The notes below the pieces were generated by a model. It did no database searches. It worked only from the letters and a program-made list of their open reading frames with translations, and was not told the DNA's origin. Shown piece by piece: positions 47-64,000 of a stretch of 64,000 nt of DNA; the stretch's first letter is position 1; every line of letters begins with the position of its first letter. This DNA comes from Phoronis australis (Eukaryota; Animalia; Phoronida), in the NCBI GenBank assembly GCA_002633005.1, contig NMRA01000010.1:1522982-1586981 (forward strand). Reading direction: 5' to 3'. A program made the position numbers and the translations under genes.

Positions 47-226
47 CCGCTGCCTTCTCAACTCTTTGCACAGGTACTGGTACTTTCCAGGAAACGTGTT
101 CCATCATCCGCCCGAAGTCAATTTCACAATCGAACCCATTTTCAGAAAACTTAACTTTGGATTCTCTCTTTGAGTAAGCCTGCTCAATCTTCAAATTTGA
201 CATACTCGAATAAAGCGCCCATTCTT
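47..226 (-). CDS. Gene A exon: WWE domain
   Basis: Translates EWALYSSMSNLKIEQAYSKRESKVKFSENGFDCEIDFGRMMEHVSWKVPVPVQRVEK and follows VQWIFEEN of the previous exon (W..W..E pattern); ttttgcag acceptor, GTAAGT donor. Confidence 0.85.
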
Positions 227-3200
227 CTGCAAAAAAATATAAAATGGTGTCAATTTGTAACCGCTGTGATGTTTTTAGACCCTAGACCCAGCAGTGCTTA
301 GAAACAATATCAGTAAAATAACTCGAACAAACTACAGCTTTAGAAATTACCCAGTTGACATATATGTACATTATTGATATACTTTACATGAAAAGTTAAG
401 CCAGATTGGTAAATTGATCCAGCTAGAAACTGAACATACGATTTTCCTCAAATATCCATTGAACATGTTTTGCTAATAATTCCGCCTGTTCTTCCAAAAT
501 GTTACGTTGATCTGCTGAATGTAAGATTTGTTTAATTTCGTCTTTAGCCTTTAAAACACATTCCGTTCGTCCTCGAATTCGTATACGGTGGATTCTTTCG
601 TTCAGGTCAATCCTCACATGATGCTTGAGGTCGATAGCCCTTGCAGTTGCAATCTGAAAAGAATTCTTGATTAGTGCCTTTCAAAAGAGTGCCCAATAAC
701 TCGAGATAGCCGTTTTCGTTAAAAAGAGGTTGACTTGCCAGTAGACTATAGTAACGAAACAGGACGCAGTGTGGCCTTATGGATTAAGTGCCAGTTTTCT
801 TTACCTAAGGTTTTGGGTTCGCTTCACACTGAAGCACATTGGCACTTCTCTAGCTTGAAGGTCAATGTTTATCATTTATCAATAAAGTATTTAAATGTTT
901 CAGGGAATCAGGGAAATGGGCCCACCTGAGCTGTCTGCGTACGTCTAGTACGTGTACCAGTAAAACTGCATGCAGCTTTTATTGTAAGGAAAGGTTACAG
1001 TTTCGAAACAATCCAATTGTTTATAATGACAATGACTAGTGAGAGATTTCTTAACATAGCTACTGTTATCGTGACTATAAGGCCACTTTTGAATATTCAA
1101 ATTCTCAGTAAGGTTTACCGTTGTTATTAAAACATATAATAAATTATGTTCTCCGTAAACACACCAACCTCGTCTTTAGTGAGCAAACGTATGGCTGCGT
1201 ATTCCTTGTCCAGACTTCCATCCATAACTACGTCACACAGCTCGTCTTTGCACAACTTTTTGATTTCTTCAATCGCTTTTGTAATGTCACTGTCCTTGCT
1301 CCCGAATATTCTTATATTGGTTTCCAACAATTGAGGAGTAGAATGGGGTACACCCTCTTCGTCGTCATCAGAACCAACTGTGGAGGTCCACGCCCCTATC
1401 AAGGAAAGAACATACACTGTAAAATGTAGGCTGTTTGAGACTTTAGGGTTAGAGAGTCAACACACGGTGGAAATGGGCCATACGATTATCTTTGGATCAG
1501 TGCTCATAAATTCGCAGAAAAAAAGATTATCACCTTGGCGACTTTAACAGTTTTGAATTTCAATTTATTATGAAGTGTTTATAATCAATAGCCCGGATTT
1601 AAAGATCGCTGCGGTTTCCGGGCATAGTTTTATTTCATTATTTTATTGTGTAAATTATTAAAAATGTTTAAAGCGAATGATCACAAAGATTGTTCAGCCC
1701 AATATATGAACAATCTGAACAGACAGAAAAACAGCCCCACACAATCAAAAATAAGGCTGAAAAAATGGGGTGTAAAAATAAACGAACTAGATGAATCGGC
1801 CTACAAGAAAAATGTCAAATTTTTTCCACCAATTATTTCCTCAAAAGCAAATGTAATACAAAGAAGTTGAAAGTTTTATCAGTTTCTGTTACACAATGCT
1901 TGCACATTCATATTACCTACCTCGAGAGGCAAAAGTTACCAATTCGGTGGTCTTTTTGAACAGTTTTCAAGCTACAAACTTCACACATTTTTGGGGGCCC
2001 ATGAGGATTTTCAAATACTACACTAATATGTACATTTGGGTTATTTTGTGCCTAAGAATCTTTTGCACACTAAATAACTACATGTAAATAGATGGGTAAG
2101 TAAGTAATTAATACCATTAGCATAACATGGGAAAAGTTAGTATACCCGAATATATCATAATTTATATTTCACTGCAGCGCAAACCATTTGAAACAAATCC
2201 ATAGATATGATAGACTATAGGGAACAAGCATATTTCGTTCTCAACATTTTGCTTTGTAAAAAGGATAAGATGTAAATTTGCATATGATGGATTTCACAAG
2301 ATTTTTCTAAAGTCTCCTCTACCCCCACACCTCTCGACCAAAACCCAATCGACCCAAGACTCCCTCGACCCACGACATGTGGCAATAGAGATGTTTTATT
2401 TGCGCTTTTTACGTATTTCATAATCTTATTACGTCGTTGAATGACTTTCCCATAAGACATACCTACACGTGAGTCTGCTCTGGATCAGGTCTGGTGATCG
2501 AAAACAGAAAGTGGCGTGAGAACGTGATCCGAAATAGCGGATTGTGTGCGTGCGATCGTTGTCACGGAAATAGTTCCAAGAGCTGCTACCAATGGCCCAG
2601 TTCTTCTAAACTTACATATAGGGAGAGATTACTTGAATGTATACAATTTCACATTTTTTGTTTGCTTTCTGTTTGCTTTCTGTTGTGTACTTCTTTAAAA
2701 TATACTCCATATAACGTTGAAGTACTTTTTACTGAACAGTTTGTTTTCTTCGAGCTGTATTTACTGATAAATTACATTTTTGTCGGCTCCTCGCACTTTC
2801 CGCCAAAAAAAGAATCTGCCATTCACTGAAGGGCAGACGAGACGATTACACTCTGCCGGGAACGACAGTTGTATCGTTAGTAAGTCTTTGATTTCATTCG
2901 GTCGCGTTGGTTTTTTCTGTTTATTTTTTGGCTTTCAAACTTGCCGAATCGGCTCTATTCGTTGCAAAAAAAGGGAAAAGTCAGCAGAGATCACGGGCAA
3001 CTCAATGGTCCTGCAAGTCAACGCTTGTTCTATGTTCAGATAGAGTCGAGCTTGTGTAGAATGGGTCGAGGGGTCGTGGGTTCAAGGGGTCGTAGTGTGT
3101 GGGAGTCGAAGTGGTGGAGGGGGTTTTAGAACAATCCGATTTCGCAGTACAGTATTCGTGCCATGGAGCTAAAAATTTTCAAACTACTTGAGCAAACACG

Positions 3201-6200
3201 AAATGGTTTTTGAGTAGGAAACACATTGAATTTGATGGATTTGGATGAATGAAATATGCACAAAACGAGTAGCGTGAAGTCCACAACATATCAAACATAC
3301 CCATCGACAAATCCAGATCGCTGTTACATGGATTGACAATTGCATCAGTGGCTTGCTTTGTTATGTCCCCTTGAAATACGCGCACTGCTAGGCCTCCGAT
3401 GGTAGCAGAGGTCGCTGCTGAAAACAAAAGACATCGTTGACGAGGCATGGAACGCGAATACTCGTGGAAACATCATTTAAAGAGATCGTTTATAACCTAA
3501 TTCTTGGGGATGCTGCAATAACTTAGAGTCATTCACTTCGTGTATTGCAAGAATTTCAAGAAAAAAAATGAGATCCACTGTTTTTGCAACACAGACAAAA
3601 TAAAAACTTTCATCCCAATACGGTTTTAAAAATCTCCGCCTGATGTCCCTACAATTGCATCACGGTCATTCTATGTTAAGACATCAAAGACAATATTCTT
3701 ATGGCCTTGTGGTCTGCGATTAACCTGACCACCCACCAGTTTCAATAGACTTTGTGTAGGTTTTTGACGTCTGATTGATATTTTCAAGTTTTTTGCACCC
3801 TGTGTAGCAGACTGTTGAAACTGCCCAATACCCACCTTGTGGTAGCATAGTGGCTCCAGCAAACGACGTCGAAGATGGCTGCCCGATTTTTGATTTAACT
3901 GCTTTAAATATCAGTTACTAGCCATAATGATTACAGTTTCGGAGGTAATAGTCACTTACAGGATTCTCGCATTTTGAGAACCAGTTTTCTACACTGAATA
4001 ACGGGCATCAAACTGGTTCCGTAAGTCACTGCAATTGCTGTTTTGGCGAGGATGAAACATTGTAAGGTACGAAGTAAGAGTTAATGAGAGCCAAGAAAGA
4101 AAAAGGGAAAAGATATAATACAAATCATACATTGCTCCACAATGGCCAGCGCCAGCCCACCTGCATTCTTCAATTTCCCATTTGCTGCATTCACGATCAC
4201 GTCCACTTTATGTTTGGTCATATCTCCTTGAATGACTTCGTCGCAAACATCATCTTCACCGAATACAATGATGCATTTGTTTTTCCTTTCCACAGTTTCC
4301 AAAAATGATTTTCCGCGTTGACAATTGAAGAATTCATCCATTCCGGGTTCAGCTATCTCGATGTTTTTACAAATAACTTTACACATCAAATTGCTTATTT
4401 TTCTTTGCGTCAAACCTACACCTTTGTTAGTTCCTTTTATAACAATTGATGTACTGTCAGCCACAAAGCAAATACTAACATGATGCGTCTTTAGCGATTC
4501 TTGAATTTGCACTACTCCTGTTTCGTTATACTGTTCCATGAAGCGGAATCTACCACTGCTCAAGCGGATTTTTCGTTCGTAAATTGTATTTGATTCGAAG
4601 AAATCTTGTACAACTTCAAGAACATTGGGCGTCACAGACCTTGTTCCAGCGATAGTAAGCTGAGTTAGGTCGCTGTGTTCCACGATTTCCAAACATCCTC
4701 GGTACTGTGTTAATTGCGATTCTTTGACACTTTTCCACTGGGAACTAGTAAGTAACGGTTTTGACTCGGCTTGTAAAGAGACCAAGGCTTCATGAAGCTC
4801 CCGACTCATTATCTGGGCTGCTTTTCGTGACACGTTCTTGTCAGACGCAAACACACTGATGTCTGTATCTGTGGCTGTCCATGAAGCCGCGACGTTTGAT
4901 GAACGGAACTGCGAATGTATGTATTTATGGCATTCCGGGTTTTTCAACAGGCGAAGAATTACTGGTGTTGAGACAACTTTCTCCGATATCAAGTTTCGAA
5001 GAATTTCGTACATGTCACTTTTTGCTTTGTTGACATCTAAAGGTATTCCAATGAACTGGACGTGCTTCTTCGTTACGTCTATCTCACACTTACAACCAGA
5101 CACGCCAAATTTCATTTCTTGCAAGAACAAAAGCTCAAAGTCTCTAAGTGTTGTCACAGTTTCCGTGACCTCTTGTGACTTTCGATTGAACTCCTCTTCC
5201 AATGTCTTTCTGTCTTCATTGACTTTCCTTAACACTTCGTCAACGATGCTGCGTACACCAGTCAATCGTATGGAGTGTCCTTCCTCGATAGTCTCAATAA
5301 GCACTTTTCCGTTCGCGTGGGACGACAGTCTTGTCACAAGATCAGTCCAAATGTGTTGGAGGATGTTAATGCTTTCAGTTTTGTAGTCCGCGAAAAAATT
5401 GACCACCGCTGTTTTGACAACATTTTCCCAAGCCATCTCCGCAAGTTGTTCAGAGCTTGATAGAAAGCAAGTCACGACAAGACTGTCTGCTGTGCTAGTC
5501 TCCCAATTTGCTCGACCGTGGTGTCTCCTTAACTCGTTGTCCAACAACTGACGACATTCCACACTAGAACAGACGAAGTTTACTAGAGAAACATCAAAAG
5601 GTCCCACGACAGCGTCATCTGGAATTCTGGCAACAGGCTTAGACGAGTCGTCGTCGGGATGTCTGAGTCCAAGTTGTTCGTAATACTCGCAGACCTTGAG
5701 AACGCATTTGCTTACTTTGTGTTTCTTCTCAATTACTCTTTGCACATCTGTAACAAACGTGAAACAGTGCAATATGCAGTTAACACAGTGCTCTATTTGG
5801 ACGGCCCAAATGAGATTTTGGAAAAGGTGACATTTTGAAAAAAGATCGTTGAATATTCTACACCTATCTCACAACATTTCAGGCCTAAAGCCAAATATAG
5901 GAAAGACTCTTTGTGTGTATTGGCGTAAAATCTTTAGCAATTCCCCGTTTATGCTCAAATATTGACCTTTCTTGCCTAATGTAAAGTTTTATGTTTTTGA
6001 GAATTTGCTTTAGTGTCGAATTATCTGAAGATCTCGCACTAAACTATAAGAAAAATAATGAAAATTGAAAGAGATATAAAGACCTGGTCTAGAAGATTAT
6101 TATTTCTTCTTTGCAGAATTACTGTAATGAAGTTTCTTTTGATACCTATGCTGGTTCATGTGCTCATGATTCTGCCATCGAAAGTTTTGGTTGTTGTGTG

Positions 6201-9200
6201 GAATGATGACAGAATAAAGAGAACTGAAATGGTGCAAATTCGGGACACTGATACGGCGGGAGAATTTCCATAGTAGCTCTACTATTTTAAGGGAAACGTA
6301 ACTGTTAATAAAAGAAAAGGGTCTTTTATAAGTGCTAATATAAGAAGGTGTTAATTTATGAATAGCTTGACTCGCACGTACTTTTTATGACTCACGCATG
6401 GTTTCTCTCCAACATTTTTGATTTCTGCTTGAAGTATGATTTTTGCATGACTTCCAAATTTCCCCAAAATGTTATGAATAAACTTATATGCTTACAAATA
6501 ACTGAAGGCACTTGCAAAAAAACAACGTGAGCGAAATTAGGAATTACAAATTAACGTTCAGGTTTCATAGGAATGGTGGAGGTAAATTTATGTTTGATCC
6601 CTTATCTTTACTGAAGATTCGAGATTAAAGTGCTAGAAGATGATCTCTCTTCTTCAAATTGCCGCCATTAACGACTTCCTGGTCAAAATTGGTGTCCAGC
6701 AGCCAGATCTTTGCGCGTATTCTAACAAAATGAGAGAGAATTTACCCATCTTTACTGGGATTGTAACGTGTCGGAAACTTTCCCTTCTGTTATCAGGGGC
6801 GGATCCAGGATTTTGAGTTAAGGGGGGCAGAGCAGATTATTAGCCAGGATTTTGCCCGTCAGACATTTTCAGCCCCGAACTGCCTGATGTAATATGGGAG
6901 AATTTTAGGGGGCCATAGGCCCCTTGGCCCCCCTCTAATTCAGCCACTGGTTATAAGTCAAAGGTTGTTTTCATGAACCCAAAACGTATGCTTATTCTCT
7001 CGTGAACGGATCGGCAAAGTACATGACTTGGATATCATAAATTAACTCAGTGTTTGTGAAAGTATCGCAGTCTCCGTCAAAGGCTCTGAAATATTATTAC
7101 GTCAACTGATATGTTTAGTTAAGAATTGTTACAACAGATAATTACGTAAATCTTGAACAAGCGTAGAAACAAAGACCTCAGACATTTAAGTCTTGTCTGA
7201 CCGCCACCTGTTGGCCACATCATTAGGTAACTATGTGGCCAGCCAAAACGTTGCGTGCAGACCAAACCTAAAAGTGCTTGTGAATTCTTACAATACGTTC
7301 AAATTAAAAATGCGTTGATGTCGGAAACCATGAATTCGTAAAATTCAATAGATTTTCCTCTTTGTTTCTTTTGTTTCTTTTATTATTCGTTAATGTTACA
7401 TTTAGTGCCTGGTCGCGAACTGTGCTTGAGTGCTTGTGCGAGTGCGCTCGCGTATATGGGATTGTGTCAAATAATCTCCCCCATTTGAATATGATACCGA
7501 TGCCAATAAACAATTAAAAACAGAACGTAAAATGCAATAAGGTATTAAAGGAACCCCCAAAACAAGGAGTACCTGGGTACACGCATTTTCGAATGACTGT
7601 TAGACATACAAATAGACTATTACGCGGCGAAAACTTATGTCCGTCGGATTTGGAGGAATTGACACCCCGAGAAGGCGCTGAATGCCACAAGAAACAACTG
7701 CGAAGAACACTAATAATTAACGTATCCCTCCAATTTTAGCCTAAACACGAGACAGCTACCGGCCAGTTATCTCGATTCGGCGACCAAATACGATGGGGAT
7801 GGCGACGTTCTTCATATATACAGAAGACGCTCGAGTGTTTGTTTTGGTTGCACGACACAGCATAGGGATGATCGAGTCACGCACAACCAAAGTTCAATGA
7901 TTCTGTTTTCTTTTGCGGGCTTTGTAGAGTTTAGGGCACCGTATGTGGGTTAAACAAGAACATTCGACGATAACAATACATTTGTACCTTTAATGTTCTT
8001 CTGCCACATTCATAATACAAACCTGTATGATCAGCAAACGTAATCACTGCCACTTTTCCATTTCCGTGAATGACCACTTTCTCTACCTCTCCACCCCCGC
8101 TTTTCTTTTTGTTTTCAAAGTAATTCTCCAGAGTATCATCTGTACAGTTGGGAGGCAGGTCGTGGACTTGTATGGAGTCTGTCAGATATACTGGCTCGAT
8201 CTGAAGAACCGACTTCTGTAGAGGTTTCTTGGTGCAAGCTTCGCGTAGCTTATGGATGTCTGCAGGTGATAATGAAGCAAGCTTTTATGGAATGCAAACG
8301 TTTTGTTTTGAGAACGCATGGAAATGTTTTAGCTATAATGCAAAGTTGTATACTAAATACATAATATATAGGTTTGGGCCGATGTGAGTAAAAAATGAGA
8401 AGATAAAATCTGAAATGAAATTGGTGTCATTAAAATTTGCACTCTTCTTTGTGTAAACTAGATTATTTACCGAAGTTAGAAAAATCGGCGTTCTACCGTT
8501 ATTCTGCCGCGAAAATTGTAGGGCAATCTTTTGTGTCGTCTTTCGGCGCCATGAAATAGTGTGCCACGTATTGGCTACTGCCGTTTTCTCCGACTCTTCA
8601 GTCTACTGTTGTTCTTTCATGAGACTGCGTACATGTTGCAACAAATAGTCGGAACTGGTTTTTAAAATTTTTCTTTCACCAAACCGAATTTCAGAGCAAA
8701 ATTTGCTGTCTTCATTTCCCGAGAGATGTCGCAAAAATTAAGGAAATAGCAAGCGTCCGTGTCACGAGCGTACTCTTTTCATGCGACATGCTTTACTTCG
8801 TTACCGTTGTAATGCGCGTTTATTATGTAAAAGTAGTTCTTACATATTAAACTCACAATACGACCAGTATATCATGACCATACTATCACGCGTATAGGAT
8901 AAAAACGTTAAACCCAGAAAGAAATAATTATATACAGGCTGTATACTATAAAACAATGACTTATTTAAGCAAAACATAATATTGATCAAAATAACGAAAG
9001 TAAAGACAACAAAAAATAGAACAAAATCATACAGTAAGAAAGGAAAACATATTAACTAGAAGCATTCATAACACTTTAACAAGAGAATGATATAGTCGGT
9101 GGGCCAGATTTTGTAGGGCCTCTAGAAAATGGTTTTTGTGAGTACTTTAGGGGGGCAATTTTATTTTGGTGTTTTTTAGTTCATTTATTAGAGTGTTTTC

Positions 9201-22300: not shown

Positions 22301-22320
22301 AATGGATTGCTTTGGCCTCA

Positions 22321-26618: not shown

Positions 26619-43598
<16,980 letters not shown>

Positions 43599-43975
43599 GG
43601 CATCACTCACTGAAAAAGATATTTTGAAGGAACAAACTTTGCTGTAATGAACCACCAACAATTCACATATCTATATCAATGAGTGCTCCATTTAGGGGTT
43701 TACTTTTTAAACAGACTTCAAAAAGACTTTTCCAGGAATATACCTACGAGGACTGAGAGCACAACTCTTGCACTTACTTTATTCCAAATTATGTAACGTC
43801 ACAAGCTACTTATTCCTTAAATTTGCTGTAAATCATATTTCATTGTGTTAAAAGTATCAGCTTTCACCGACAGCCAGCTTCATTGCTCATTTAATAAAAT
43901 AATTCATCCTTTTATCTAGGCTCTCTAATAGAGGTATCTGTGTCAAGATAACATAAATTGACAAAGGAGTAGATA

Positions 43976-44126
43976 CAATGGCGTATTTGGAGGGGGGGGC
44001 ATTGCCCCTAAAATATCCCAGATTCCATATGGTAGTTCGGGGGTGCGAATGTCTGACGGGCAAAATCGTGGCTAATAGTCTGCCCTTCCCCCCACCCCCT
44101 AACTCAAAATCCTGGATCTGCCCTTG
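43976..44126. mobile_element. 5-bp-TSD MITE (same family as 6794)
   Basis: caatggcgtattt...ggatctgcccttg; TSD AGATA on both sides. Confidence 0.8.
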
Positions 44127-48842: not shown

Positions 48843-48927
48843 GATTTCTTCGAAATCGTGACGTCATTGGAAATTCCCAACTTACGCCATCACAGCCCAA
48901 TCAGCGAGCCAGAATCACGGGATTTCC
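48843..48927 (+). promoter_or_regulatory. Gene C promoter module: GAS - CRE - kB - CCAAT - kB
   Basis: TTCTTCGAA (48846-48854), TGACGTCA (48859-48866), GGAAATTCCC (48869-48878; reverse complement GGGAATTTCC), CCAATCAGCGAGC (48897-48909), GGGATTTCC (48919-48927); 60-140 bp upstream of ATG 48985. Confidence 0.8.
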
Positions 48928-48984
48928 AAGGTGGTACTTCGATCTTCATCTCGCTGAAGCAGATTAGGTTCGAAGGTGTCGACA

Positions 48985-49192
48985 ATGTCGGAAGAAACCC
49001 GGCAATCTATCGACACTGGTGAACATGTATATGAGAATGCTGTGCTGGTCAGCAATATTCAAAATCTTTCTGAGGAGCAGTTAACAATCTACTTCCAGAG
49101 TGAGTCGAAAAGTGGAGGCGGGGAAGTCGCAGTGAACGGTTTCAGACGCTTACACGATGACTGCGCGGTTGTGATTTTTCGCGGAAACTGCA
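48985..49192 (+). CDS. Gene C exon 1 (extra N-terminal RRM)
   Basis: MSEETRQ...AVLVSNIQNLSEEQLTIYFQSESKSGGGEVAVNGFRRLHDDCAVVIF; GTGAGT donor, phase 1. Confidence 0.85.
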
Positions 49193-52100: not shown

Positions 52101-55100
52101 GACTTCGCACTTCAAACGTCACTGGCTCATGCATCGACAGGGCAAGTTAAGCAAGGTAAGGTCTCAACTAGATCAAACCTTTCCGTCGTGCAAGCATTTG
52201 CTGGCTTTCATGACATTTATACTTGCACACGCAAAGCAATATTGGTGGCAAAAGTTTCTGTTCCAGTGCTCATTTGGAGATAGTGTTTGGCAATCTGGGA
52301 AAATCCCAAGTCGTCATGAAGGGCACACGTTACGGCCCGATTATTTTAACAATTCTACTAGCTATTTTTAACATCACTTAAAACCAATAAGTAGTATGGT
52401 TACAAAAGCACTTCTTGTTGGTTAACACTTACCGGCCACAGCGCCTGGGCTTTTACGATCGCGGTTTCTTCTGTTTACAAATTGGGGAACAGAGGTGTGT
52501 GTGTGTGTGGTGGAAATTAGTAACATTCTTTATCAATTAGTTATGACATTGCGAACTACAAAACTACATGTAAATCCACCATTGGTAACTTTTCATTGTT
52601 TGAACGCAAAAAAGAATATAAAACTGCTGTTCCTTTGCTGATAAATATGTCCCAAGTACCAACATCTATTGTGTAACCTTAGCAACATTGAAGCAACTTG
52701 ACTTCTGTATGTCACTGCTTGTCATAGTGATCTTAAGTCACCCAAACATCAAATGGATGTCTATTTCGAAACGCGTGCTCAGCCACATTGTCTTTCGCTA
52801 GCTTATCAAAATCACAATGTTGCCGTATACAGTATGTGTGCATAAGTGTTAAAACAGTCCAACTGTACTGCTAGACATTTGACCCCAGCGAGAGAAATCA
52901 TCTTTCTTGTTGTTACTGTAGCTGCAGCACCATCCCATGGATGTGTTTTACCACCTCCAGGTTTTCAAGAACTGCTTCCAACCCGTAAGTTATTCACTAC
53001 TTTCCTGCCTTTTCATCTATGAGTGTTGTTTTTGTAATATAAGTGACCTCATTATGTGATACAGGGGAAACATTGGGATATTATGATTGGTTAGAAATAA
53101 CATTTGGACATTCCAATTGGATAATGTTAAGAAGTGATTCTGTATCCTGCAAGATTCAGAACATACATCTCAAAAATGTCTTATATGGGATTCCTAAAAC
53201 AATTCCGATAATCTGCTTGATGCGCTGATCTCTAAAACGCAGCTATGAAATTGGTCCACTTTTACATACGTCTTTCAAAAATAGGACTTTATGATTGCAA
53301 AATACTACCAGGAATGAGATACGATTCGTCCTTTTATTTAATTCACACGATTTTACGCATTTTGGGACCCACTTCTTCACTTGTAAAATCAATGAAGAAA
53401 AATCAAAAGTTGCATAAAACCAAATTGAAATCGGAGATTTATAATTCAGGCAACAGCAATTTTAGACTTCATCTTACCAAATTTGGTCATGGTATTGATT
53501 TTAATAAAAGGATATGATTATGTGACCTAATCGTTGGCACATTGGAATAAAGTCAAAAACCAAAATTTACTGGCCTTCTGCTCTCAGCAAATGTCTTTCT
53601 TGGTTTAAATTCTAAAGTTATTAAGGTATTTGACTGAATGCAGGTCTTGTTGATAAGGACCTACATAACATTAATCTTTGTGTTTCACATAGCTAGGCAT
53701 CAAGTAAAACACGAACCCGATTTGTTATATTTTTACGGCTCACTCCCGGGCCTTACATTTTCGACAAACTTTCAAACTGAAGCACTAATGATCTGCAGCA
53801 AGTCGTGTATTTTAGGTCTCAACATTCCCCTTGAATGTGAATGTTTTATGCGCACTTGCGGACTTCAGCTTGTATTAGTCACATGACATGTCATACAACT
53901 GAAACGAACTCAAGCGCAGGTATCAGTCACGTACGAGGGTACAACTAATGCTGCGAAAATACCAGGTGGCACTGGTGAGAGAGGTTACCTGGGTAACTGA
54001 GTTTAAACTACTTCTTGGGTCTCTTATCTTACACAAAAGTAATCTCCAAAATAGTGGTTAACTTTTCTATTTTAAAATTAAGGCTGCTTACTCTGCTGCT
54101 AATAATGGAAACTTTACCAAATGTTGACAAAATTGACAGAGTATAATTCACGTGTCGGCCATATGTTTTTGTCGGCCATATTGTGTGCTAATTAAGTGCA
54201 GAATGTGCTGTATCAGCCGGTTCGATAAATCGACCCCAATGTTCACTATGCCCAGCTTATCTGTTTTCATGACAAATAAGCAATATATATCTGCTTTTTA
54301 ATGAATGCATGCCCGCACCCAGCCTAAAAAATGGGGGCTCGAATTTTAGAGGATGTGGAACTTTTACTAAGATTCACGGGGTATGCTCTGAGCTATGAAT
54401 TGTGCATTCGCCAAATTTTCGGTAGTTCCTTCCTTTTTAGTAGACTGTTGTCTCGTATTCTACTTTTTTCAGAATTTTTGTTTCTCCGAGGCGGACATTT
54501 TTGTCCCCCCCCTTGGCTGTGCTAATGTTTTAAAATTTGTGTAGTCTAACTTTGTAATTGTACCTTTATTTATTTAAAATCTGCACCGCAAGCGTACTTT
54601 CACTAATCCGGTGAAATGTTGCCGAAAAGTCAGTTTTCATGTACCATTTAGTAGTTAATTTTCCTATACCTGTCATAGACAGGGTCTTGGAACACTGGTC
54701 TCCACTCCAGAGGGCTACTATGTTACTTAAAACAGTTCTTTCTGATTAGGAGCCGGTTTTTCAACTGTCCCTAATGATTAGAGTCTCATCACCATCAGCT
54801 GAAAATTTCCCGCAGTGTTGTTTTTTGAGGAAGGCTCTTGTAAAAACCTGATGTCAGAAACCTTTGTGTGTTACTATAAGGTTGTGTCATTGCGTGTTGT
54901 ATCTTGCTCCTTAGAACCCTAATGTTTTTCTAGACATTCCCCGTCTCATTGAAGTGAGTGGGGTTGGAGAAGTTGTCACAAAGGAAATGATTGAACTGTA
55001 TTTTGAGAATAAGAAGAAGTCAGGTGGCGGAGACATCAAGGATATACAGTTTGATTCCAAAAAGAAGAAAGCTATGGTGGAGTTTAACGATCCAACGGGT

Positions 55101-58100
55101 AAGTCGAAATAGTTCATGTTCCTGTAAGAGGTAAACCTGTGATTTTGCACGTTTAGTATCATTTTAGTCACTTTCATTGAGTATTCATTATTTATATGTT
55201 ACTTGCATGTCTACGTTTTGTAGTCGTCGACTCGGTGTTGAGCAAAGCTGATCACACAATCATGGGTAAAAAGCTTAAAGTTATGCTGTACGTTCCAAAA
55301 CCAAGGACAGCTGTTCGCGTAACAGGAATGAGTAAAGACACATCACTGGAAACTCTGGAGCTCTATTTTGAAAACCCAAAGAAATCGCATGGGGGTGACA
55401 TAGTAAATAAATGGATGAATGACGAGCGAACTGTGGCTGTGATCGATTATGGATCAGTGAAAGGTTTGAAGGGTTTTAGATTCAGAATTTCAAGAAACTA
55501 ATGTCGCGAATACTGATTTCCACTTGAGTTGCTACTAATGTGATATCAAAAAGTTTTAAGCTATGTTTAGATAGCAGCACTTGTGTCATTTCACCCAGTT
55601 GTACATTACTAGTATTTTGTAGGAATATACGCTGAATAATTAGACTCTTTAAAGAACCTTATTTTTATAATGCCTAGTACACTACAATTTGTTCATCAAA
55701 TTAAAGGTGTTGAAGATTTATTCCAAGATAATTTGTATTACTTCACTTGTAGTTGCGGAACGAGTTGCCGAAAAAGTAGAGCACATTTTCCTCAAGGCTT
55801 CGCTAACTGTCGTCCAATGTAGTCCAGACGAAGAGATAGATGTGGAACAGATGAGTTCAGAGGGCGACGGCCCTCTTTGTGAAGAAAGTGTTGCCATATC
55901 TGAAGCCCCTCCTATGACTGCAGTTCGAATAGTCAACTTTGACCCAAAAACACCTGACGAAATTTTAGAGCTTTTCTTTGAGAACCAAAAGAAGTGTGGT
56001 GGGAGCGACATTCTAAGTCTCCGTGTAAACGACGAGCGAACTGTGGCTGTCGTCGACTATGGATCAGAAGAAGGTACATGTATAGTGTAGATACCTATTC
56101 ATAATTTGTTATCTATAGCGTTATGCTGAATGTACTGAGTTTTATTGTTTGATTCGTTGTATAATACTAATTATTTTCTTTACCATACAGTTGCCAGAAA
56201 CGTCGCTGACTATCCTGAATTGATACTTGATGAAACTGTGCTAACCGCGGAATTGTGTTCTCCCGATGACCCCATGGAAAATAGTTCGTCTGACATTGAA
56301 TTCGTCCTGGAGGTTTCTGGCTTCAAACAGTCCACATCTGAAGCAAACATTAAACAATTCTTTGAGAACAAGAAACGATCGGGCGGTGGTCCACTAGCAT
56401 CAATGGAGCCCGTTGAAGATGGCTCGACAAGGACCTACAGACTTTCATTCCAGAACACATATGGTACGTTATGGTAGAAACTAATATTATACCAGATCAT
56501 TTACTTAATACCTATTACAGCCTCTTCAAAGGAATGAGAGACCAGTTCAGGTAATGTTCAAAAGGTATATCAGAAATCAAATTACTTAAAGTGTTAGCAC
56601 TAAATGAAGATACGTAAATAAAGTATTTGATACGAGTTACAAATATTCATGAAAATTGCATAAACTTCGTCGAAAACACGACTAGACTTTGTGTTTGAAA
56701 GCTTGATATTGCTTCGCTGGCAGTTTCGGAATAATCTCCTTTCTTCAGGTGTGCAGCTATGTAGTAAACACGTCACTTCGTCATGAAAAACAACCTCAGT
56801 CGTAAAGACTTATGACCAGTGGCCAAATCTAATGTCGTAATTCGCAAATGAATTCACATGTCATATGGAGGAATGTCTTCATTCTCGTGATCAGCGTTAC
56901 ATTGTACGCACAGTGTGTTCTCTCGCGACGGTTGTCCATGCACTTGCAGGGGGGTCTATTCAAGATCATTTTGTACAACAACATGGTCGAAAAATTACTA
57001 GGCAAGAAATAGCTACTTATTCCCTGATGACGAGACGTGCAGTCTCGAAATATAGCTAGTCTTTTAATTTGTTTGTTTATTTATTTGTTTTTTTGTTTGT
57101 TTGTTTGTTATCTTTTGCTGTTTTACTACATAGCTGCACACCTGAAGAAAAGATATTATTCCGATAGCGAGAGCAAACCAGTATCACGCTTGCAAACAAA
57201 AAGTCATGTTTTCAACGAAGTTTGTGTAAACGAAGGGCTGCTACCAAACTATATGGAAATTACATCGTACCTATTTGAGCCAGGAGGTTGAAACGAGTTA
57301 AGCAGTATTGTCCTGAACGTCTTACCAACTCCAGTATCTGTTTTGGAAGGTGGGGCGTAGGGCGAGTTATTGACATTAGTCTGGTGGCCATTGCTTTACG
57401 TTATTTGCCGCAATTGATTTTTGGCTTCCAAGATGCATTTTTATACTGAACTTGGAAATACACATATTAGAGGAGTGGTTGTTTTTCTAAACAACTTGGC
57501 CATTACTTAACTAGGTATCTCTACTTTTTATAGATGCCCAGTGCGTTCTTAAAAAGAAGGTGCTCAAGTTGGAATCGGTGAATCTGGATGTTGTCGTAAG
57601 TGGCACAAAACCCAAGCAAGTAACTCACAGCGCTTCGCGGCACACCATTGAACAAGAAGAAGAAATACCTCCTCCAGTCAAAACAATTCGAGTCAGTAAG
57701 TTGCCAGAGAAAACATCGCGTGATCTCTTGGAGAATTACTTTGAAAACAGACGCAAATCTGGTGGAGGAAAAGTGGAGAAGATAGAACTGGAGGAAATCA
57801 AAGGAACAGCTTTAGTGACCTTTGCTGAAGCATCAGGTAAGAAAGTAGTGCGTACAAGTAAACGAAGTAGACTGCTTGTACTGATATGATATATCTTTTT
57901 ACATTCATCAGATGTTTGTCTTCTGTTAAAGGGGTACTAAACTCAGTTTCGTCCTATTAACAGATAGCAAAAGCTTTCCCATCCAATTCTCTGCAACCAA
58001 ATAAGGCTGTGTAACCCTCGACAACCCACAACAGTTTGGAGGAAATCATAAAAACAGGGTTCAGTATCCTTTTAAGCAACAGTGAATTGATTGAACCGAT

Positions 58101-61100
58101 GTCTGCCTCTGTGCCTTTTTAATGTCTACTCGTGTTTCTAATAGCTTTGAGCCGAATGTCATTTTCTATTTCTTTCCCACTCTATACTGTGCTAACACTT
58201 GACTCTGTAACAGCTACGTCATGCTTTTGTTGTTCGTGCCATGTTTGTACGGGCTCGTGTATATTATTTATGATTTCAGCGGCCGACAGAGTGTGGCAAA
58301 AGCGACTTCACCACAAATTGAACAATTCCCCCATTGACGTAGAACTTGTTCAACCCCCCAAGCCGAAAAAGAAGTTACCCCTAGATCCTCACAAATTGGC
58401 AATCTGTAACATACCAGGGAGTGCCACCTATGACTCGCTTGTTAATTATTTGGAGAGCAAAACGAGATGCGATGTCAAAGAAATCCTGTATGGAGAAACA
58501 CCAGGTTCCGTGTTCGTGATATTCAACCAGAAACCAGGCAAGTTTGCTCATCTCGAAAGTTAATGTATACGGAAAAGTCACATAATCATTTTAACTTGCA
58601 CAGACTCATGGTTTATAAATTCGACAGAAATATTTTATTTAAGGTTTCGTCTTTTTATCGATTTACTCAGCCAAGCTTTTTTGCAGTTAATTTCGTTTAA
58701 GTTTGGATAGTTGTAATATTGGTCGCATTGCCATCAATTGTGGCAGCAAAAGCGAAATCTCATTAAGATATTGTATTATCCTTTAGACATTGACCAGCTT
58801 AAAGAGACCTGCAAGCGAAAATCATTGGAAAAGTCATTTCTTCATGTTGAGCAAGTGCATCTGACAGACTCCATACAAGTCCACGACCTGCCTCCTAATT
58901 GTACAGAGGATGCTCTGGAGAATTACTTTGAAAATGTTAAGAAAAGCGGAGGAGGAGATGTCGAAAAGGTCGTTATTCACCGAAACGGAAAAGTGGCAGT
59001 GACTACATTTGTTGAGTATAGTGGTACGTAACATTTTTAAAATTACAGTACACACTCCTTTAGCCTATTTACAGGTATGTGAGAATAAATGCCCATTCCT
59101 TTTTGTGATTAAAATAAGGAAGTGTCACTCACCAAATACGTGACTGTTTATCTGTCAGAGGTACTAATCGTGAACATCAGGTGACAGTTTTGAAGAATAT
59201 CATCTGGCAGGGTTTGGTATCTACTTCTTTCAGGTAGTTACATGTACATGTACCTTTAGCTTTGTTACAAGGCTCCTGTGTTCAGATTGCTGCATACTGA
59301 TCACAACTGTCTATAACTTATGAAAAACAAGCAACATCAATGCACCCATCAATAATTATGAATATCCCCAGCATTTTAGAAAAATATAAACTGAAACTAA
59401 TCTGAAAGTAAGATTTTTACAGAAGTATGCGATAAGTGTTCATATCCCTAAAATGAAACTTCCATGAGTGCGATCTTAAAGTTAAATTAACACAGGCTAA
59501 TACAGACTAATCACTGATATTGGTCCTTCAGAAAGCCGATTGGAGAAACATGATGTCAGAGGATGGGTTTTACACTAATTGTATCTTTGTTTACACAGTT
59601 GTGTTTTTAGAGATTTTATAGCGCATCACACCCACTGTCACCATAATTGGGTATATATTTATAGCGCATCACACCCACTGTCACCATAATTGAGTATATG
59701 GTTAGATGATAGATGAGATTTAATGGGGTACTTGAAAAGCTATTTGCTTATCAGCAACTAATCAACCATGTCAGCACAACAACAGTCAGGGGGTTTTCAA
59801 AATTAACTGAACGATTCAAAACTCGACAGACTACAGTTTGTGACTGAATATCCATTTTTTCATCTAGGATTCGTTTCAATGCTGGCTAAATCTTGACAGA
59901 TGTTGGTCCACGCACTTTGTTAAAATCGCAAAAACTTATGGTGTCTGGCCATTCACAAATAAACAATTCCATGGCTAGGGACAATACAAAATGCTGTCAA
60001 AAACAGTACTGGTGTAATATGTTTCGTTCATTCCGAAAAAATCTGTGCTATCAAAAGTAACTCTTTGATTTGCAAAATTTGAGCTTAATTGTGTTCCACG
60101 AAGAGTCTAGCTAGTGCCCCATTACTGTGTAAATAATTACTTTGCGCGTGTAAGCGAAGAGTACTATGAGTTGTTCTTGGGTTTTCTTCAATTTTATTCT
60201 TATTCTTATTCTTCTTCCTACCAACTTTGACACTTAATAACTCCAAAATAGTTGGAGGTATGTTCTTCAAATTTTACATATGATTTAAGGCAGTATGTAA
60301 ATTTTGATTCATTGTATATTCATATTCCATAATACACCGAAAGAGGTCATTTGGTGCAAAGGTCATGTAATTTTTAAAATGCTACTCCTACTTTATTTTA
60401 AAAGCTATTGTTTTCAAATTCTGTACACAAGTATAAGTCAAGTAGGCAATTTAAAAAAATTACTTTTCTAAGTAATGGGGTCATCCAATCAGGTTAAATA
60501 GGTCAAAGGTCATTAGGTGCAAACTAAAATTTTGAGCTAGACACTTCAAATTTACAAGTTTGATTGGTACGTCTAATTGAATTCCAAATATAACGTTTCA
60601 GGTCATTTAGTGCAACCATGGGGTCATTGGGTGCATTTTTCTTCGGAAAATTTGCCCTTTTCATTCTGATGTGTCGACCATTAGACAACTGTGATTCTCA
60701 GCATTTATCATAATTTTCACAGACTGCAATAGTTCTACTAAAAGGGTTTGTAATGCACTGGATAGGGTCAATTAGTGCAAATGTCATCTAGTTTTGAAAA
60801 GGTTATTTCTTCTACATTTTTCAAGGAATTCTCTTCAATTCCAGTACATTGGTGTAAACCTATATGCCAATGAAATACCCTAATTAATTAAGCAATAGAG
60901 CCATCAAAATAGAGAAAGTACGTCAAAGGTCATTGAGTGCAAACTAAAATTTTGAGCTAGACACTTCAAATTCACAAGTCTGACTGGTACGTCTAATTCA
61001 ATTCGAAATACAAAGTTTCAGGTCATTAAGTGCAATCATGGGGTCATTAGGTGCATTTTTCTTCAGAAAATTTGTTCTTGTCATTCACCAAGTACTCAGA

Positions 61101-64000
61101 TGTGTCAACCGTTAAACAACTGTGATTTTCAGCCGATAAACCAACTTTTCATGGGCTTTGCAATAATTCTTCTAAAGACGCTTATAATGCAACGGATACG
61201 GTCAATTAGTGCAAAGGTCATCTAACGTTCAAAATGTTATATCTCCTACATTTTTCAAGGAATTCTTTTCAATTTCAGCACACTGGTGCAAGTCAACATG
61301 CAAATTGAACACCCTGCTTTACTACGCAATAGGCCTAACCAATCAAAAAGTAGGTCAAAGGTCATTGAGTGCAAAATAAAATTTTGAGCTAGAGACTTCA
61401 AAATTACACATCTGTTAAGCAAATTCGATTGAGTTTGAATTCGAAGTTTTCAGGTCATTTGGTGCACCCATGGGGTCATTAGGTGCATTTTTCTTCTGAA
61501 AGTTTGACCAATTCATTCATCTTGTATTCTGAAGTGCTTCAAGTAAAACATCTGATTCTTAGCATTAACCACACTTTAAATCCAGTTTACAATTATTCGG
61601 GGTTCGTAATGCACCGGAAGAGGTCAATCAGTGGAAAGGTCATCAAAATATTAAACATGTAATTTCTCCTACAATTTCAAAGAATTCCTGCTCTTAGTAA
61701 CTTCCCAAAACAATTCCAGTAATGCGCACGCACAGAGTCCAGTATTGTGACGCTGTGACAATAATCTTTCTAGTTATTACTTGAACTTTTTTCAGTCTTC
61801 AGTGTAACAGCTCTTAATGCACAGCTTAGCATCATCAGCACCCCCAGTCATAATGTGGCGAACTTCTTAATCAAGTGGAACTGGACAAAGCTACTCGGAT
61901 TCCTAGCCCGTAACCAGAGTACTTGCTTTGTGAAACATTTTTACCTTCCCCTGACTGAACTCCAAAGTATCTCTCAAAAACGGTCATAGCGCTCTCCGGT
62001 GTAATTAAAATAAATTGTTAGTCATTAGCTAATTTTATAGCCAGCAACGGTTAGCAAATCAAATCAAATCAATATGTCAAAACAAACGCCAATACAGGGG
62101 CGTATCTAGGATTTTGAGTTGGGGGGTAGGGCACGGGAATAACCAGAATTTCGACACATGCGCTCGCCCAGCCTAAAATGTGGGGACGCAGAGGCCTCAA
62201 ATGTTTGGGGTTGCAGACCTGTTGACTAAAAAAAACTTAACATGATTTGTTCAGTTTGTTCGGGGCCTATGCGTTGTTTATTCACCCCCGACGAGCCCCT
62301 GCTTGCGTGCACCCGAACTCCCAAATTGTATGTGGTAGAATTTTAGGGGGAGCCACGGCCCCCTTGCCTCCCCCCTAAATCTGCCACTGCAATATAACAC
62401 GGTAAAAATAGAGAAATCACGTAAAATCAAAGAATCTATCAAAATCAGGACACAGAACCCCTTCTTGAATTGGGAATGTGTTCTTCAATTATCTCCCTCT
62501 ACCGAGTGACATCCTTATCAAGCGTACGCCGGAAAACTCCCCAGTTTGTCTAGTCGTCAGCAAAGTCCTGGCGGATCAGGCCGAAACGTTTGCTAGCATC
62601 CGGCAATTTCAGTTTCTCAAGTAATTTCGCTATATTTACCATGTCATCAAAAGACAATGATCAACCTGTTTTGCCGAACTAATATAACAACAGAACAAAC
62701 TATTGCGGTTGCAAAAACCTACTTGAAATGAATCGGATATTTTCTTTTGCAGTTCTTCCAAATGTCCTCAAAATAAAAAAGCACGAAATAAATAATCACA
62801 AAGTCAAAGTGAGTGAGTATCATGAAAAACTTGGATTCCGACACCCAGAAGAGGATGCTTCTCAACCTGCTGTCCGTGTACCGGAGGACGTATTGGTTGG
62901 GCCTCTTAATAAAGCCGTTGTCGAATTTATTTCCACGAGGATAGATTGTCGTCAGTTATTTGAAAGTGAGTTGCAAAGACACCACGGTAAGCTGAAGTGG
63001 GAATCCTGCTCTATGGACAGTTTTCTTGTGACTTGCGAGTTGTCGAGCCCCGTGCAAATTATGGAATTGCCGCATCCGTGGGAGGAAATGATCAAGACTG
63101 CTGTTGAGAATTTTTTGGATAAGTACTGCAGTGAGCACATCAACGTTTTGCAAGACATTTGGGATGATCTGGTAGAAACCCTTCCCGATAGCATGAAAGG
63201 TTATGAAAAAGAGGCAGTTATGGAAAAAAGTGATAATCAACACATCATCAAAATCACTGGATTGAAGAGAGTTGTTGAAGCGCTGGCAACAAAGATAAAC
63301 AAGGAGAAACAAAATTTGGAAGATGAATTCGATCGGAAATCTCGGGAAGTGACGGAAACCGTAACTAAACTGGAAGATTACGAGCTGCGTTTCTTACATG
63401 AAAGCGGGATTGATTTACTCGGTTGTAAATGCAAAATCGATTTAACAAATGCAGTAATTCAGTTTACTGGAATCCCTCTCGACGTTAACAAAGCAAAAAC
63501 TATGATGTACGAAATTCTTCGGAACCTTGATTCAGAAACTATTGGTTCCACTCCGGCCATTTGTCATCTGCTACAAAATCCCGAATGTCAAGATTACATT
63601 TATTCGCAATTCCACTCACAAAAACTGGCTGTTGCCTTGAGTAAAACAAATAACGATATCACTGTGCACTCGTCGTACAAGACATCTGCAAGAGAAGCTG
63701 CGAAAATCGTGAGCCAGGAGCTCAAGGAAGTCAAGATACCTATTGAGAAAGAATCGACTGCCGTCCTCAAGAGTTCAAGTTGGCAAAAAATTAAGGTTGA
63801 TCAACTGGAAAAGTACAAGGGATGTTTAGAAATTATCGAATGTTCTGATTTCTCCCACCTTGTCGTTGCGGGAACAAGCCATGTCATTGCCAATGTTTGC
63901 GAAGTTGTACAAGATTTTATTGACCAAAACACGATCTACAATGACAGCTTCGCCTTGAGTCGTGGACACTTTCGCTTTATTGTTGAATACAAACGCAATA
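48985..64000 (+). CDS. PARP14: Gene C: PARP14-like paralog of gene A (8 RRM - KH array...), runs off the right edge
   Basis: Phase-compatible exons 48985-49192, 51490-51578, 51870-52155, 52922-52984, 54934-55098, 55224-55463, 55753-56073, 56191-56463, 57534-57836, 58280-58537, 58787-59023, 62753->64000; exon-by-exon homology to gene A. Exons 3-4 are the least certain. Macro, WWE and PARP domains are not in the window. Confidence 0.85.
51490..52984 (+). CDS. Gene C exons 2-4 (51490-51578, 51870-52155, 52922-52984): end of RRM and Pro/Ser-rich linker
   Basis: Canonical sites; phases 1-0, 0-1 and 1-1 chain correctly; QQRVLGRDHELFGYRLKVEP completes the RRM. Confidence 0.65.
54934..59023 (+). CDS. 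Gene C seven phase-1 RRM exons
   Basis: Lengths 165, 240, 321, 273, 303, 258, 237 nt versus gene A 165, 240, 321, 273, 306, 258, 237; seen in ORFs at 55196, 55689, 56145, 57560, 58132 and 58738. Confidence 0.92.
56750..57065 (+). mobile_element. Old Penelope-like GIY-YIG relic with hammerhead core
   Basis: Frameshifted VMKNNL..KSNVV..FTCHMEEC..YI..T..LSRRLSMHLQG/SIQDHFVQQHGRKITRQEI, followed by CTGATGA-cgagac gtgca gtctc-GAAA (about 57024-57050). Confidence 0.6.
57930..58071. mobile_element. Short TTAA-flanked MITE (Kolobok/T2-like)
   Basis: ttaa|aggggtactaaac...gttcagtatcctt|ttaa. Confidence 0.6.
59614..59699. repeat. Two-copy tandem repeat of about 43 bp
   Basis: ttttatagcgcatcacacccactgtcaccataattg.gtata twice. 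Confidence 0.9.
60137..61775 (+). mobile_element. Helentron/DINE-like element with about 3.2 tandem units of about 420-435 bp rich in AGGTCA
   Basis: Unit anchors ggtca.t..gtgcaaa.gtcat at about 60345, 60765, 61200 and 61621; 5' (TTATTC)n microsatellite; 3' hairpin tattgtgac-gct-gtgacaata then CTAGTT. Confidence 0.65.
62095..62389. mobile_element. Longer composite variant of the 5-bp-TSD MITE
   Basis: caggggcgtatct...aaatctgccactg; TSD CAATA on both sides; internal segment shared with the copy at about 23285-23566. Confidence 0.8.
62753..64000 (+). CDS. Gene C large KH-array exon (truncated by the window, so absent from the ORF track)
   Basis: ttttgcag acceptor; KKHEINNHKVKVSEYHEKLGFRHPEEDASQPAVRVPEDVLVGP and QNLEDEFDRKSREVTETV align with gene A KKHKVSKCVLKVCEYYEQLGLRHPDDDSSKPVARIPDDAVVGP and KTLEEEFNRKSQEVTETV. 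Frame spot-checked, not read codon by codon. Confidence 0.9.

What the first reader, a model, noticed from the sequence alone, without database searches (positions are those of the whole stretch)
47..64000. PARP14-like / DTX3L-like / PARP14-like cluster with a head-to-head pair, echoing the human PARP9-DTX3L-PARP15-PARP14 locus
Seen: genes B and C diverge with ATGs 5.4 kb apart (43598 and 48985), and gene A is an inverted paralog of C lying downstream of B. Known: human PARP9 and DTX3L are head-to-head and adjacent to PARP15 and PARP14 on 3q21. Inference: linkage of a macro-PARP with a Deltex ligase is either ancient bilaterian microsynteny or re-evolved as a co-regulated writer/reader/ligase defence module.
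Basis: partly seen in the sequence, partly recalled or inferred. Interest (0 to 1): 0.72.

Follow-up and report, generated by a model that had tools for sequence, protein, structure and literature searches.

The report
Invertebrate PARP14-Deltex cluster, domains redistributed
An invertebrate carries a Deltex ubiquitin-ligase gene with its own two ADP-ribose-binding-type macrodomains between two PARP14-like genes, one of which has lost nearly all of its macrodomains, a layout that resembles the human antiviral PARP9-DTX3L-PARP14 locus but likely arose separately.

Summary
The three genes are real. A (minus, 13 exons, open at the left edge) and C (plus, 10+ exons, open at the right edge) are old inverted PARP14-like paralogs (52.9% identical, matching exon sizes). 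B (minus, 7 exons, 1520 aa) lies between them; its ATG and C's are 5387 bp apart. Two things change the reading. B is a DTX3L-like ligase with two macrodomains of its own (first hydrolase-type, second reader-type), so it looks like PARP9's macrodomains plus DTX3L in one chain; macro-Deltex proteins are already known from invertebrates. A keeps only two macrodomain stubs, in frame (116 aa where six relatives have 666-752). No PARP catalytic exon lies in the window. A and B are transcribed from the minus strand; C's expression and any co-regulation are unshown. A 2026 preprint dates the human DTX3L-PARP9 linkage to after lungfish, which argues against ancient microsynteny; I could not survey synteny in other invertebrates. 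Best reading: a lineage-specific cluster that likely re-creates the writer/reader/eraser/ligase module with the domains split differently. New variant of a known kind; interest 0.45.

The parts
47..19288 (-). Gene A, PARP14-like, 13 coding exons (19288-19228, 18460-18296, 17566-17327, 16134-15814, 15192-14920, 14703-14398, 14250-13993, 8259-8023, 5747-4131, 3417-3301, 1395-1169, 653-440, 226-47); seven RRM-type repeats, KH block, two macrodomain stubs, C-terminal KH, WWE; continues beyond the left edge
   Evidence: GT-AG, in frame, 1405 aa; minus-strand RNA; exon 1 is assigned from phase and splice sites only
4131..4236 (-). Gene A: N-terminal stub of macrodomain 1 (about 35 aa, loop 1 only)
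   Evidence: best match is the MD1 start of 6 of 6 relatives
3301..3417 (-). Gene A exon 10: N-terminal stub of macrodomain 3; phase 1 on both sides
   Evidence: best match is the MD3 start in 6 of 6 relatives
440..653 (-). Gene A exon 12: most of the C-terminal KH-like domain (KH8-type)
   Evidence: Pfam KH_PARP14_8 E 4.6e-4, below the curated cut-off; alignment with relatives
47..226 (-). Gene A exon 13: WWE domain; donor site at 46; a PARP domain follows here in relatives
   Evidence: Pfam WWE E 1e-6
26619..43598 (-). Gene B, DTX3L-like with two macrodomains, 7 coding exons (43598-43421, 42268-42180, 41074-38488, 34348-33749, 33336-32510, 31806-31595, 26688-26619), 1520 aa: RRM, probable KH-like block, macro, macro, RING, DTC
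   Evidence: minus-strand RNA and exon 3-4 joint in 20 reads
38488..38917 (-). Gene B macrodomain 1 (completed by the start of exon 4): hydrolase-type loops (NAAN...GGG; GIFG)
   Evidence: Pfam Macro E 1.3e-14; best PDB matches PARP14 MD1 and PARP9 MD1; criteria from PMC10221186
33749..34178 (-). Gene B macrodomain 2 (completed by the start of exon 5): lacks the loop-1 Asn/Ser and the loop-2 aromatic, reader-type or inert
   Evidence: Pfam Macro E 4.3e-14
32510..32780 (-). Gene B RING finger and start of DTC, in the same exon and frame as the end of macrodomain 2
   Evidence: Pfam zf-C3HC4_2 E 7.6e-12; macro profile positions 134-189 hit the start of this exon at E 0.012
31595..31806 (-). Gene B exon 6: DTC core with the HHKT motif
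   Evidence: PDB 3pg6 DTX3L E 6.6e-27 versus DTX1 6.7e-19 and DTX2 1.9e-18
26619..26688 (-). Gene B last exon: DTC end and stop codon
   Evidence: no RNA laid here
43599..48984 (.). B-C spacer, 5386 bp, partly repeats; no Pfam family in the 8 spacer ORFs scanned (a further one, 43887-44216, was not scanned)
   Evidence: (both-strand repeat depth)
43730..43738 (.). Only perfect STAT/GAS-type site (TTCCNGGAA) of the window, 132 bp upstream of B's ATG; lead only
   Evidence: loose GAS pattern reached by 482 of 5000 shuffles; pattern recalled
48846..48878 (.). GAS-like, CRE and NF-kB-like sites within 33 bp, 107-139 bp upstream of C's ATG; lead only
   Evidence: 6 of 5000 shuffles reach 3 sites, patterns chosen after seeing them
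48985..64000 (+). Gene C, PARP14-like, 10+ coding exons (48985-49192, 51490-51578, 54915-55098, 55224-55463, 55753-56073, 56191-56463, 57534-57836, 58280-58537, 58787-59023, 62753->64000); eight RRM-type repeats and KH block; continues beyond the right edge

Best explanation
This is a three-gene invertebrate cluster in which a DTX3L-like ligase carrying two macrodomains (B) sits between two old inverted PARP14-like paralogs (A, C), and it likely arose in this lineage rather than being the ancestor of the human locus, likely working as an ADP-ribose writer, reader, eraser and ubiquitin-ligase defence module. Shown: gene structures, domain order, A's missing macrodomain exons, transcription of A and B. 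Inferred: one PARP14-like gene next to B was duplicated and inverted to B's other side, which by itself yields one tandem and one head-to-head neighbour; C, and A if its catalytic exons survive beyond the edge, would write mono-ADP-ribose; B would bind the mark with macrodomain 2, attach ubiquitin to it with RING-DTC, and remove it with macrodomain 1, the jobs that vertebrates split between PARP9 and DTX3L. A lost symmetric phase-1 exons, which kept the frame, and is either a slimmed writer or a decaying copy.
For: Models in frame with canonical splice sites. B: Macro x2, RING, DTC; DTC His, Tyr and Glu matching those named catalytic in DTX3L are aligned in B and 10 of 10 homologues (residues named in PMC10810221 and the 2026 preprint; numbering transferred by me). 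Macro+RING+DTC in 10 of the 120 listed DTC hits (two corals, abalone, four Ciona, three unnamed) and in no row named as a vertebrate. B's two macrodomains are sisters (SH-aLRT 89.2/UFBoot 95) and lie outside the PARP14 MD1 clade (95.1/95), so B is not a recent chimera of A or C (31 of 50 extracted domains); B and C share only 33-39% identity over one RRM. All 22 long relatives of A's KH exon that I scanned (of 150 listed) carry Macro and 14 of 22 a PARP domain. PARP14-like genes are known to duplicate locally (PMC4245714, PMC13224862). Human-type DTX3L-PARP9 linkage is dated after lungfish. A and B are both covered by minus-strand RNA in X6 and X7 and both low in X8.
Against: No PARP catalytic domain is visible for A or C, and 8 of 22 relatives also gave no PARP hit (some partial or isoforms). 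No second invertebrate locus was examined, so 'arose separately' rests on one preprint whose figures I could not see. Three libraries of one study cannot show co-regulation, and C's expression was not resolved (exon 1 bin mixed with repeat reads). RNA depth over B's RING exon is low (about 1.0/0.4/0.4 against 2-7 on other exons in X6 and X7), and only the exon 3-4 joint was among the 15 of 55 joints shown. Joints across A's macro stubs were not among the 15 of 99 shown, so an allele-specific or assembly loss is open. B's KH block is weakly supported (hhalign probability 11%, E 0.0027).
Confidence: 0.5

Rival explanations
1. Ancient microsynteny: PARP14 and macro-DTX3L were neighbours in early bilaterians because one arose by domain exchange with the other; this locus keeps that state, fish lost it and tetrapods kept or regained it.
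For: Both families share the RRM-KH-macro front end; B exons 1-2 and C exons 1-2 have the same phases and an 89-bp second exon. The preprint itself suggests early 'domain-level exchanges'. Deltex-fused macrodomains are MD1-like.
Against: The preprint places the DTX3L-PARP9 locus after lungfish and zebrafish dtx3l at a distinct locus. B and C are very diverged. The phase-1 intron inside the RRM is shared by all RRM exons of A and C, so it is not specific to B and C. Fast-turnover immune families with many paralogs per genome make single adjacencies cheap.
Confidence: 0.2
2. Chance neighbourhood without functional coupling: expanded immune paralogs ended up side by side, each with its own promoter, and A is an early pseudogene.
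For: 5.4 kb spacer with repeats; candidate motifs sit close to each ATG separately rather than in one shared block; A has lost about 550-640 aa of macrodomains and its introns hold high-copy repeats; the preprint finds co-expression falls with distance.
Against: A is stop-free over 1405 codons with canonical sites at all 12 complete introns and is transcribed; B's catalytic motifs are intact; in vertebrates the two families work together even when unlinked.
Confidence: 0.22
3. Gene A's missing macrodomains are an assembly collapse or a rare allele, and A is a normal macro-PARP in the species; the cluster is then an ordinary PARP14/macro-DTX3L/PARP14 array.
For: High-copy repeats lie between 2456 and 4020, and no listed DNA contig spans 2456-5161; the species is highly polymorphic (RNA reads mostly 90-99% alike).
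Against: The loss has at least three separate breakpoints (inside exon 9, between exons 9 and 10, between exons 10 and 11), each leaving intact splice sites and frame; DNA contigs match 1285-2456 and 5161-6816 with no differences.
Confidence: 0.08

Closest known systems
Human PARP9-DTX3L(-PARP15)-PARP14 locus, 3q21.1
   Same: A Deltex RING-DTC ligase with RRM/KH front end lies head-to-head with a macro-PARP-family gene and next to another; a hydrolase-type macrodomain followed by a reader-type one accompanies the ligase.
   Different: The macrodomains are in the ligase chain, not in a separate PARP9; the head-to-head partner is PARP14-like; ATGs are 5.4 kb apart rather than sharing a UTR or a few hundred bases (preprint); PARP9 and PARP15 do not exist outside vertebrates; one PARP14-like copy lacks macrodomains.
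Invertebrate macrodomain-DTX3L proteins (Ciona XP_026691658.1, Montipora XP_068721738.1, Oculina KAL9974242.1, Haliotis LOC124131666)
   Same: Macro followed by RING-DTC; the preprint notes that DTX3L lost its macrodomain when PARP9 appeared.
   Different: All 10 such hits show one Macro stretch; B has two, from a duplication in its own lineage, the second without hydrolase motifs.
Multi-RRM PARP14-like proteins of molluscs, brachiopods, hemichordates and amphioxus (e.g. Haliotis XP_046555938.1, Branchiostoma XP_035673188.1, Glandiceps XP_077990954.1)
   Same: RRM repeats, KH block, C-terminal KH and WWE in the same order; local duplication.
   Different: At most 33% identity in the KH exon among the 150 listed hits; A has only MD1 and MD3 stubs; catalytic domains of A and C not seen.
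PARP10 (RRM, UIM, PARP, no macrodomain; PMC4245714)
   Same: A macrodomain-free clade-3 layout, which A approaches.
   Different: A keeps macrodomain stubs and a WWE and is a clear paralog of C, so it is a trimmed PARP14-like gene, not a PARP10.

Membership tests
DTX3L (gene B) | C-terminal RING followed by DTC | tested here: met
DTX3L (gene B) | N-terminal RRM and no WWE | tested here: met
   RRM_PARP14_3 E 1.3e-7 on exon 1; no WWE hit in the ORFs of exons 1, 3, 4, 5; best N-terminal match among held proteins is a Styela RRM-KH-RING-DTC protein
DTX3L (gene B) | KH-like block between RRM and RING | tested here: inconclusive
   271 collinear columns with the DTX3L KH region, probability 11%, E 0.0027; single-sequence fold pLDDT 36, unusable
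DTX3L (gene B) | DTC His/Tyr/Glu used for ADP-ribose ubiquitylation | tested here: met
   aligned and present; residues named; a 2-residue shorter loop precedes the Tyr
DTX3L (gene B) | Orthology to vertebrate DTX3L rather than DTX3 | tested here: inconclusive
   RING-DTC FastTree of 35 sequences leaves B among invertebrate sequences with local support 0.37
Vertebrate-type DTX3L (gene B) | No macrodomain; depends on PARP9 | tested here: not met
   two macrodomains; B is the invertebrate macro-bearing type
Active macrodomain hydrolase (B MD1) | Asn/Ser and Gly flanking loop 1; hydrophobic plus aromatic residue in loop 2 | tested here: met
   criteria in PMC10221186; activity itself not testable; the usual adenine-binding Asp position reads Asn (role recalled)
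Active macrodomain hydrolase (B MD2) | Same loop 1 and loop 2 residues | tested here: not met
PARP14 / macro-PARP (gene A) | RRM repeats, KH block, C-terminal KH, WWE | tested here: met
PARP14 / macro-PARP (gene A) | Complete macrodomains (three in the ancestral form) | tested here: not met
   only two stubs; 116 aa versus 666-752 in 6 of 6 relatives
PARP14 / macro-PARP (genes A and C) | C-terminal PARP catalytic domain | not testable with these tools
   both genes leave the window and no whole genome is held
PARP14 / macro-PARP (gene C) | Macrodomains and WWE | not testable with these tools
   window ends inside the KH exon
PARP9-DTX3L bidirectional locus | Partner is PARP9 (two macrodomains, vertebrate-specific) | tested here: not met
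   C has eight RRM-type repeats and a long KH block, PARP14-like
PARP9-DTX3L bidirectional locus | Shared compact inducible promoter | tested here: inconclusive
   ATGs 5387 bp apart; transcription starts not resolved; an acceptor-like AG 11 nt before B's ATG allows an upstream non-coding exon
PARP9-DTX3L bidirectional locus | Co-induction and protein complex | not testable with these tools
   three unchallenged-or-unknown libraries of one study only

The most novel reading that the evidence does not exclude
A mirror image of the vertebrate solution, evolved independently and physically linked: where vertebrates stripped the macrodomain from DTX3L and gave it to PARP9, this lineage doubled the macrodomain inside the Deltex ligase (eraser plus reader, like PARP9) and stripped the macrodomains from a neighbouring PARP14 copy, which keeps the C-terminal KH-WWE region that contributes to DTX3L binding in human. 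A and B would form a co-induced writer plus reader/eraser/ligase pair, showing that the ADP-ribose-ubiquitin module and its genomic linkage evolved more than once.
Probability: 0.2. Interest if true: 0.72.

Novelty: new variant of a known kind. Interest (0 to 1): 0.45.

Why it matters
The origin of the PARP9-DTX3L-PARP14 antiviral complex is an open question under active study. A single chain with eraser, reader and ADP-ribose-directed ligase is a simple test object for how making and removing the ubiquitin-ADP-ribose mark are coupled, and an invertebrate locus linking it to PARP14-like genes gives a concrete test of whether the linkage is old or repeatedly selected. Against this, macro-Deltex proteins and local PARP14 duplications are already in print, and one locus cannot settle the question.

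Tried and rejected
No whole genome is held, so flanking exons and neighbours could not be read. Two of three word-based homologue searches found nothing (B exon 5: 0 of 912 candidates at E 1e-10; A exon 9: 0 of 7130 at 1e-5); the profile-free full search then found 588 relatives at E 0.001. No RNA holder was listed by the index; RNA came from runs added by species label. Joint tables were crowded by repeats, so most predicted junctions are neither confirmed nor refuted. A single-sequence fold of B's KH block failed (pLDDT 36) and was not searched. The Atlas search returned Macro clusters only. Using accession adjacency as a synteny proxy failed: none of the 20 PARP14-like clusters named came from the same species as a named macro-Deltex hit. 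No complex prediction was sent: A's C-terminal KH is split over two exons and B's KH block has no alignment. Rfam: 0 matches. No Pfam family in 23 other ORFs, 16 of them between the genes or in B's last intron region. Rejected: B as a recent chimera of A or C (tree; different intron positions in the macrodomains; low identity); hidden diverged macro exons in A (profile and tblastn searches); monophyly of all 8 Deltex-fused macrodomains is unsupported (26.7/49); the Haliotis Deltex macrodomain was left out of that tree after falling on a very long branch. ISRE-type sites were not found within 200 bp of any ATG. Literature searches for invertebrate linkage found no report of it; the library lacks most subscription papers.
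Full report
Observation. The window is animal genomic DNA of about 39% GC with no assembly held. Six-frame ORFs and Pfam give three genes. I placed exons by splice sites and phase. Gene A (minus, 19288 to 47) has 13 exons, GT-AG throughout, 1405 residues without a stop, and leaves the window after a WWE exon. Gene B (minus, 43598 to 26619) has 7 exons and 1520 residues. Gene C (plus, 48985 onward) has at least 10 exons, one GC-AG intron, and leaves the window inside its KH exon. The ATGs of B and C are 5387 bp apart. A and C are 52.9% identical over 1010 residues and share exon lengths almost base for base; A lacks C's first RRM.

Gene B. Domain order is RRM, a probable KH-like block, macrodomain, macrodomain, RING, DTC. 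The fusion is visible in DNA: exon 5 holds the end of macrodomain 2 and the RING in one frame. RNA confirms the exon 3-4 joint in 12, 6 and 2 reads of three runs. Macrodomain 1 is closest to PARP14 MD1 and PARP9 MD1 among solved structures and has the loop residues that PMC10221186 lists for hydrolase activity (passages seen); macrodomain 2 lacks them. The DTC keeps the His, Tyr and Glu that PMC10810221 (passages) and the 2026 preprint name for ADP-ribose ubiquitylation, by my alignment to ten homologues. Of the 120 listed DTC hits (715 passed), 10 also carry Macro: two corals, an abalone, four Ciona proteins and three unnamed; no row named as a vertebrate does. All ten have one macrodomain. 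In a 31-domain IQ-TREE, B's two are sisters (89.2/95), group with a Ciona and an unnamed Deltex macrodomain (98.2/96, long branches, so caution), and lie outside the PARP14 MD1 clade (95.1/95). B therefore doubled an old Deltex macrodomain in its own lineage and reached PARP9's eraser-plus-reader order independently (inference).

Gene A. After the KH block come about 35 residues of macrodomain 1, a 39-codon exon matching the start of macrodomain 3, and then the C-terminal KH. The stretch is 116 residues against 666-752 in six full-length relatives. No other macro fragment is found in 3380 window ORFs or by tblastn of six relatives. The introns on either side of the lost exons are phase 1, so the frame survives. 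A is transcribed from the minus strand on both sides of the gap, but the joints across it were not among the rows shown, so allele or assembly effects remain possible. Its KH exon finds 588 relatives, at most 33% identical among the 150 listed; the 20 clusters named come from molluscs, amphioxus, Lingula and a hemichordate. Of 22 long ones scanned, 22 have Macro and 14 a PARP domain. No PARP catalytic exon lies in the window.

Regulation. Estimated exon depth in X6/X7/X8 is 8.9/5.8/0.9 for a bin of A's KH exon and 6.7/5.3/0.0 for a bin of B's exon 3: the two move together, but these are three libraries of one study. B's RING exon is thinly covered (1.0/0.4/0.4), unexplained. C's exon 1 bin is mixed with repeat reads. 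C's upstream 200 bp holds GAS-like, CRE and NF-kB-like sites within 33 bp (6 of 5000 shuffles; 1 of 319 non-overlapping windows has three kinds), and the only perfect GAS site of the window is 132 bp before B's ATG; the patterns are recalled and were chosen after I saw the sites, so these are leads. They point to separate proximal promoters, yet an acceptor-like AG 11 nt before B's ATG and minus-strand depth at 44240-44906 (6.2 versus 1.0 in X6) leave room for an upstream non-coding exon of B and a shorter true distance.

Comparison with what is known. Preprint 10.64898/2026.04.23.720386 (abstract, introduction, first results section and start of the second, first part of the discussion and passages seen; figures and supplements not seen, and its Figure 1d-e may show invertebrate architectures and neighbours) states that the DTX3L-PARP9 locus arose after lungfish, that zebrafish dtx3l lies elsewhere, and that PARP9's origin coincides with loss of the macrodomain from DTX3L. 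PMC10221186 dates PARP9 to jawed vertebrates and PARP15 to mammals. PMC4245714 and PMC13224862 (passages) report local PARP14-like duplications, with at least four together in amphioxus. PMC11080071 (abstract and section 10) maps DTX3L binding to PARP14's C-terminal half, with macrodomain removal weakening it, which tempers the idea that A could bind B well. PMC8195618 (passages) has an Aplysia DTX3L in an antiviral co-expression module and a PARP14 in a different module. 10.1101/693333 (passages) lists parp9, parp14 and dtx3l as ancestral interferon-stimulated genes of fish and human. Seven searches found no report of PARP14-Deltex linkage in an invertebrate.

Mechanism and verdict. Most likely (0.5) a PARP14-like gene beside a macro-Deltex gene was duplicated and inverted long ago, giving one tandem and one head-to-head neighbour; the PARP14-like proteins would write mono-ADP-ribose and B would read, ubiquitylate and erase it. 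Gene structure and motifs are shown; catalytic domains of A and C, activities, binding and co-induction are inferred from the vertebrate system. Rivals are chance neighbourhood with a decaying A (0.22), ancient microsynteny (0.2) and an assembly or allele artefact for A (0.08). The parts are known; the two-macrodomain Deltex, the macrodomain-stripped PARP14 copy and their linkage are the new elements. New variant of a known kind, interest 0.45.

Noticed in passing
window 29006-30256: Two inverted GIY-YIG endonuclease fragments, 87% alike over 300 bp, in B's last intron; they look like Penelope-type element remains (label recalled; Pfam GIY-YIG).
   Followed up: partly
window 8700-13000: Very high-copy, transcribed element in A's intron 7 with CXC (TCR) and DUF7765 fragments and spliced reads skipping 10620-11488.
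   Followed up: no
window 13083-13177: Orphan copy of the start of A's exon 8 (82% alike to 8186-8281), on the far side of that element.
   Followed up: no
window 35600-37070: Abundantly transcribed repeat in B's intron 3, with 37 reads in two runs... joining 37063 back to 35606 counted as 10 and 14 reads: tandem or circular form of a 1458-bp element.
   Followed up: no
window 37295-37933: 213-codon ORF without a Pfam hit in B's intron 3 that resembles the tail of a LINE-type reverse transcriptase (resemblance recalled).
   Followed up: no
window 44240-44906: Minus-strand-biased RNA depth upstream of B in all three runs; possible non-coding first exon of B or a repeat.
   Followed up: partly
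window 60329-61687 and 26980-28224: Degenerate tandem arrays (period about 420 bp in C's intron 9; about 390-410 bp in B's last intron).
   Followed up: no
window 58537-58538: GC-AG donor in gene C where the matching intron of A has GT.
   Followed up: no
P0131 (Glandiceps XP_077990954.1): A GT4-conflict glycosyltransferase domain is fused in front of a full PARP14-like protein; could be a real fusion or a merged gene model.
   Followed up: no
P0016, P0025, P0062, P0082 (Ciona): Three macro-Deltex genes and one short Deltex gene share one contig length and, for the three, close LOC numbers, suggesting a local Deltex expansion.
   Followed up: no
P0138, P0142 (Potamilus): Two PARP14-like genes four locus tags apart on one contig; the three genes between them are unknown to me.
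   Followed up: no
P0003, P0006, P0007: Deltex proteins of lamprey, coral and abalone with two DTC domains.
   Followed up: no
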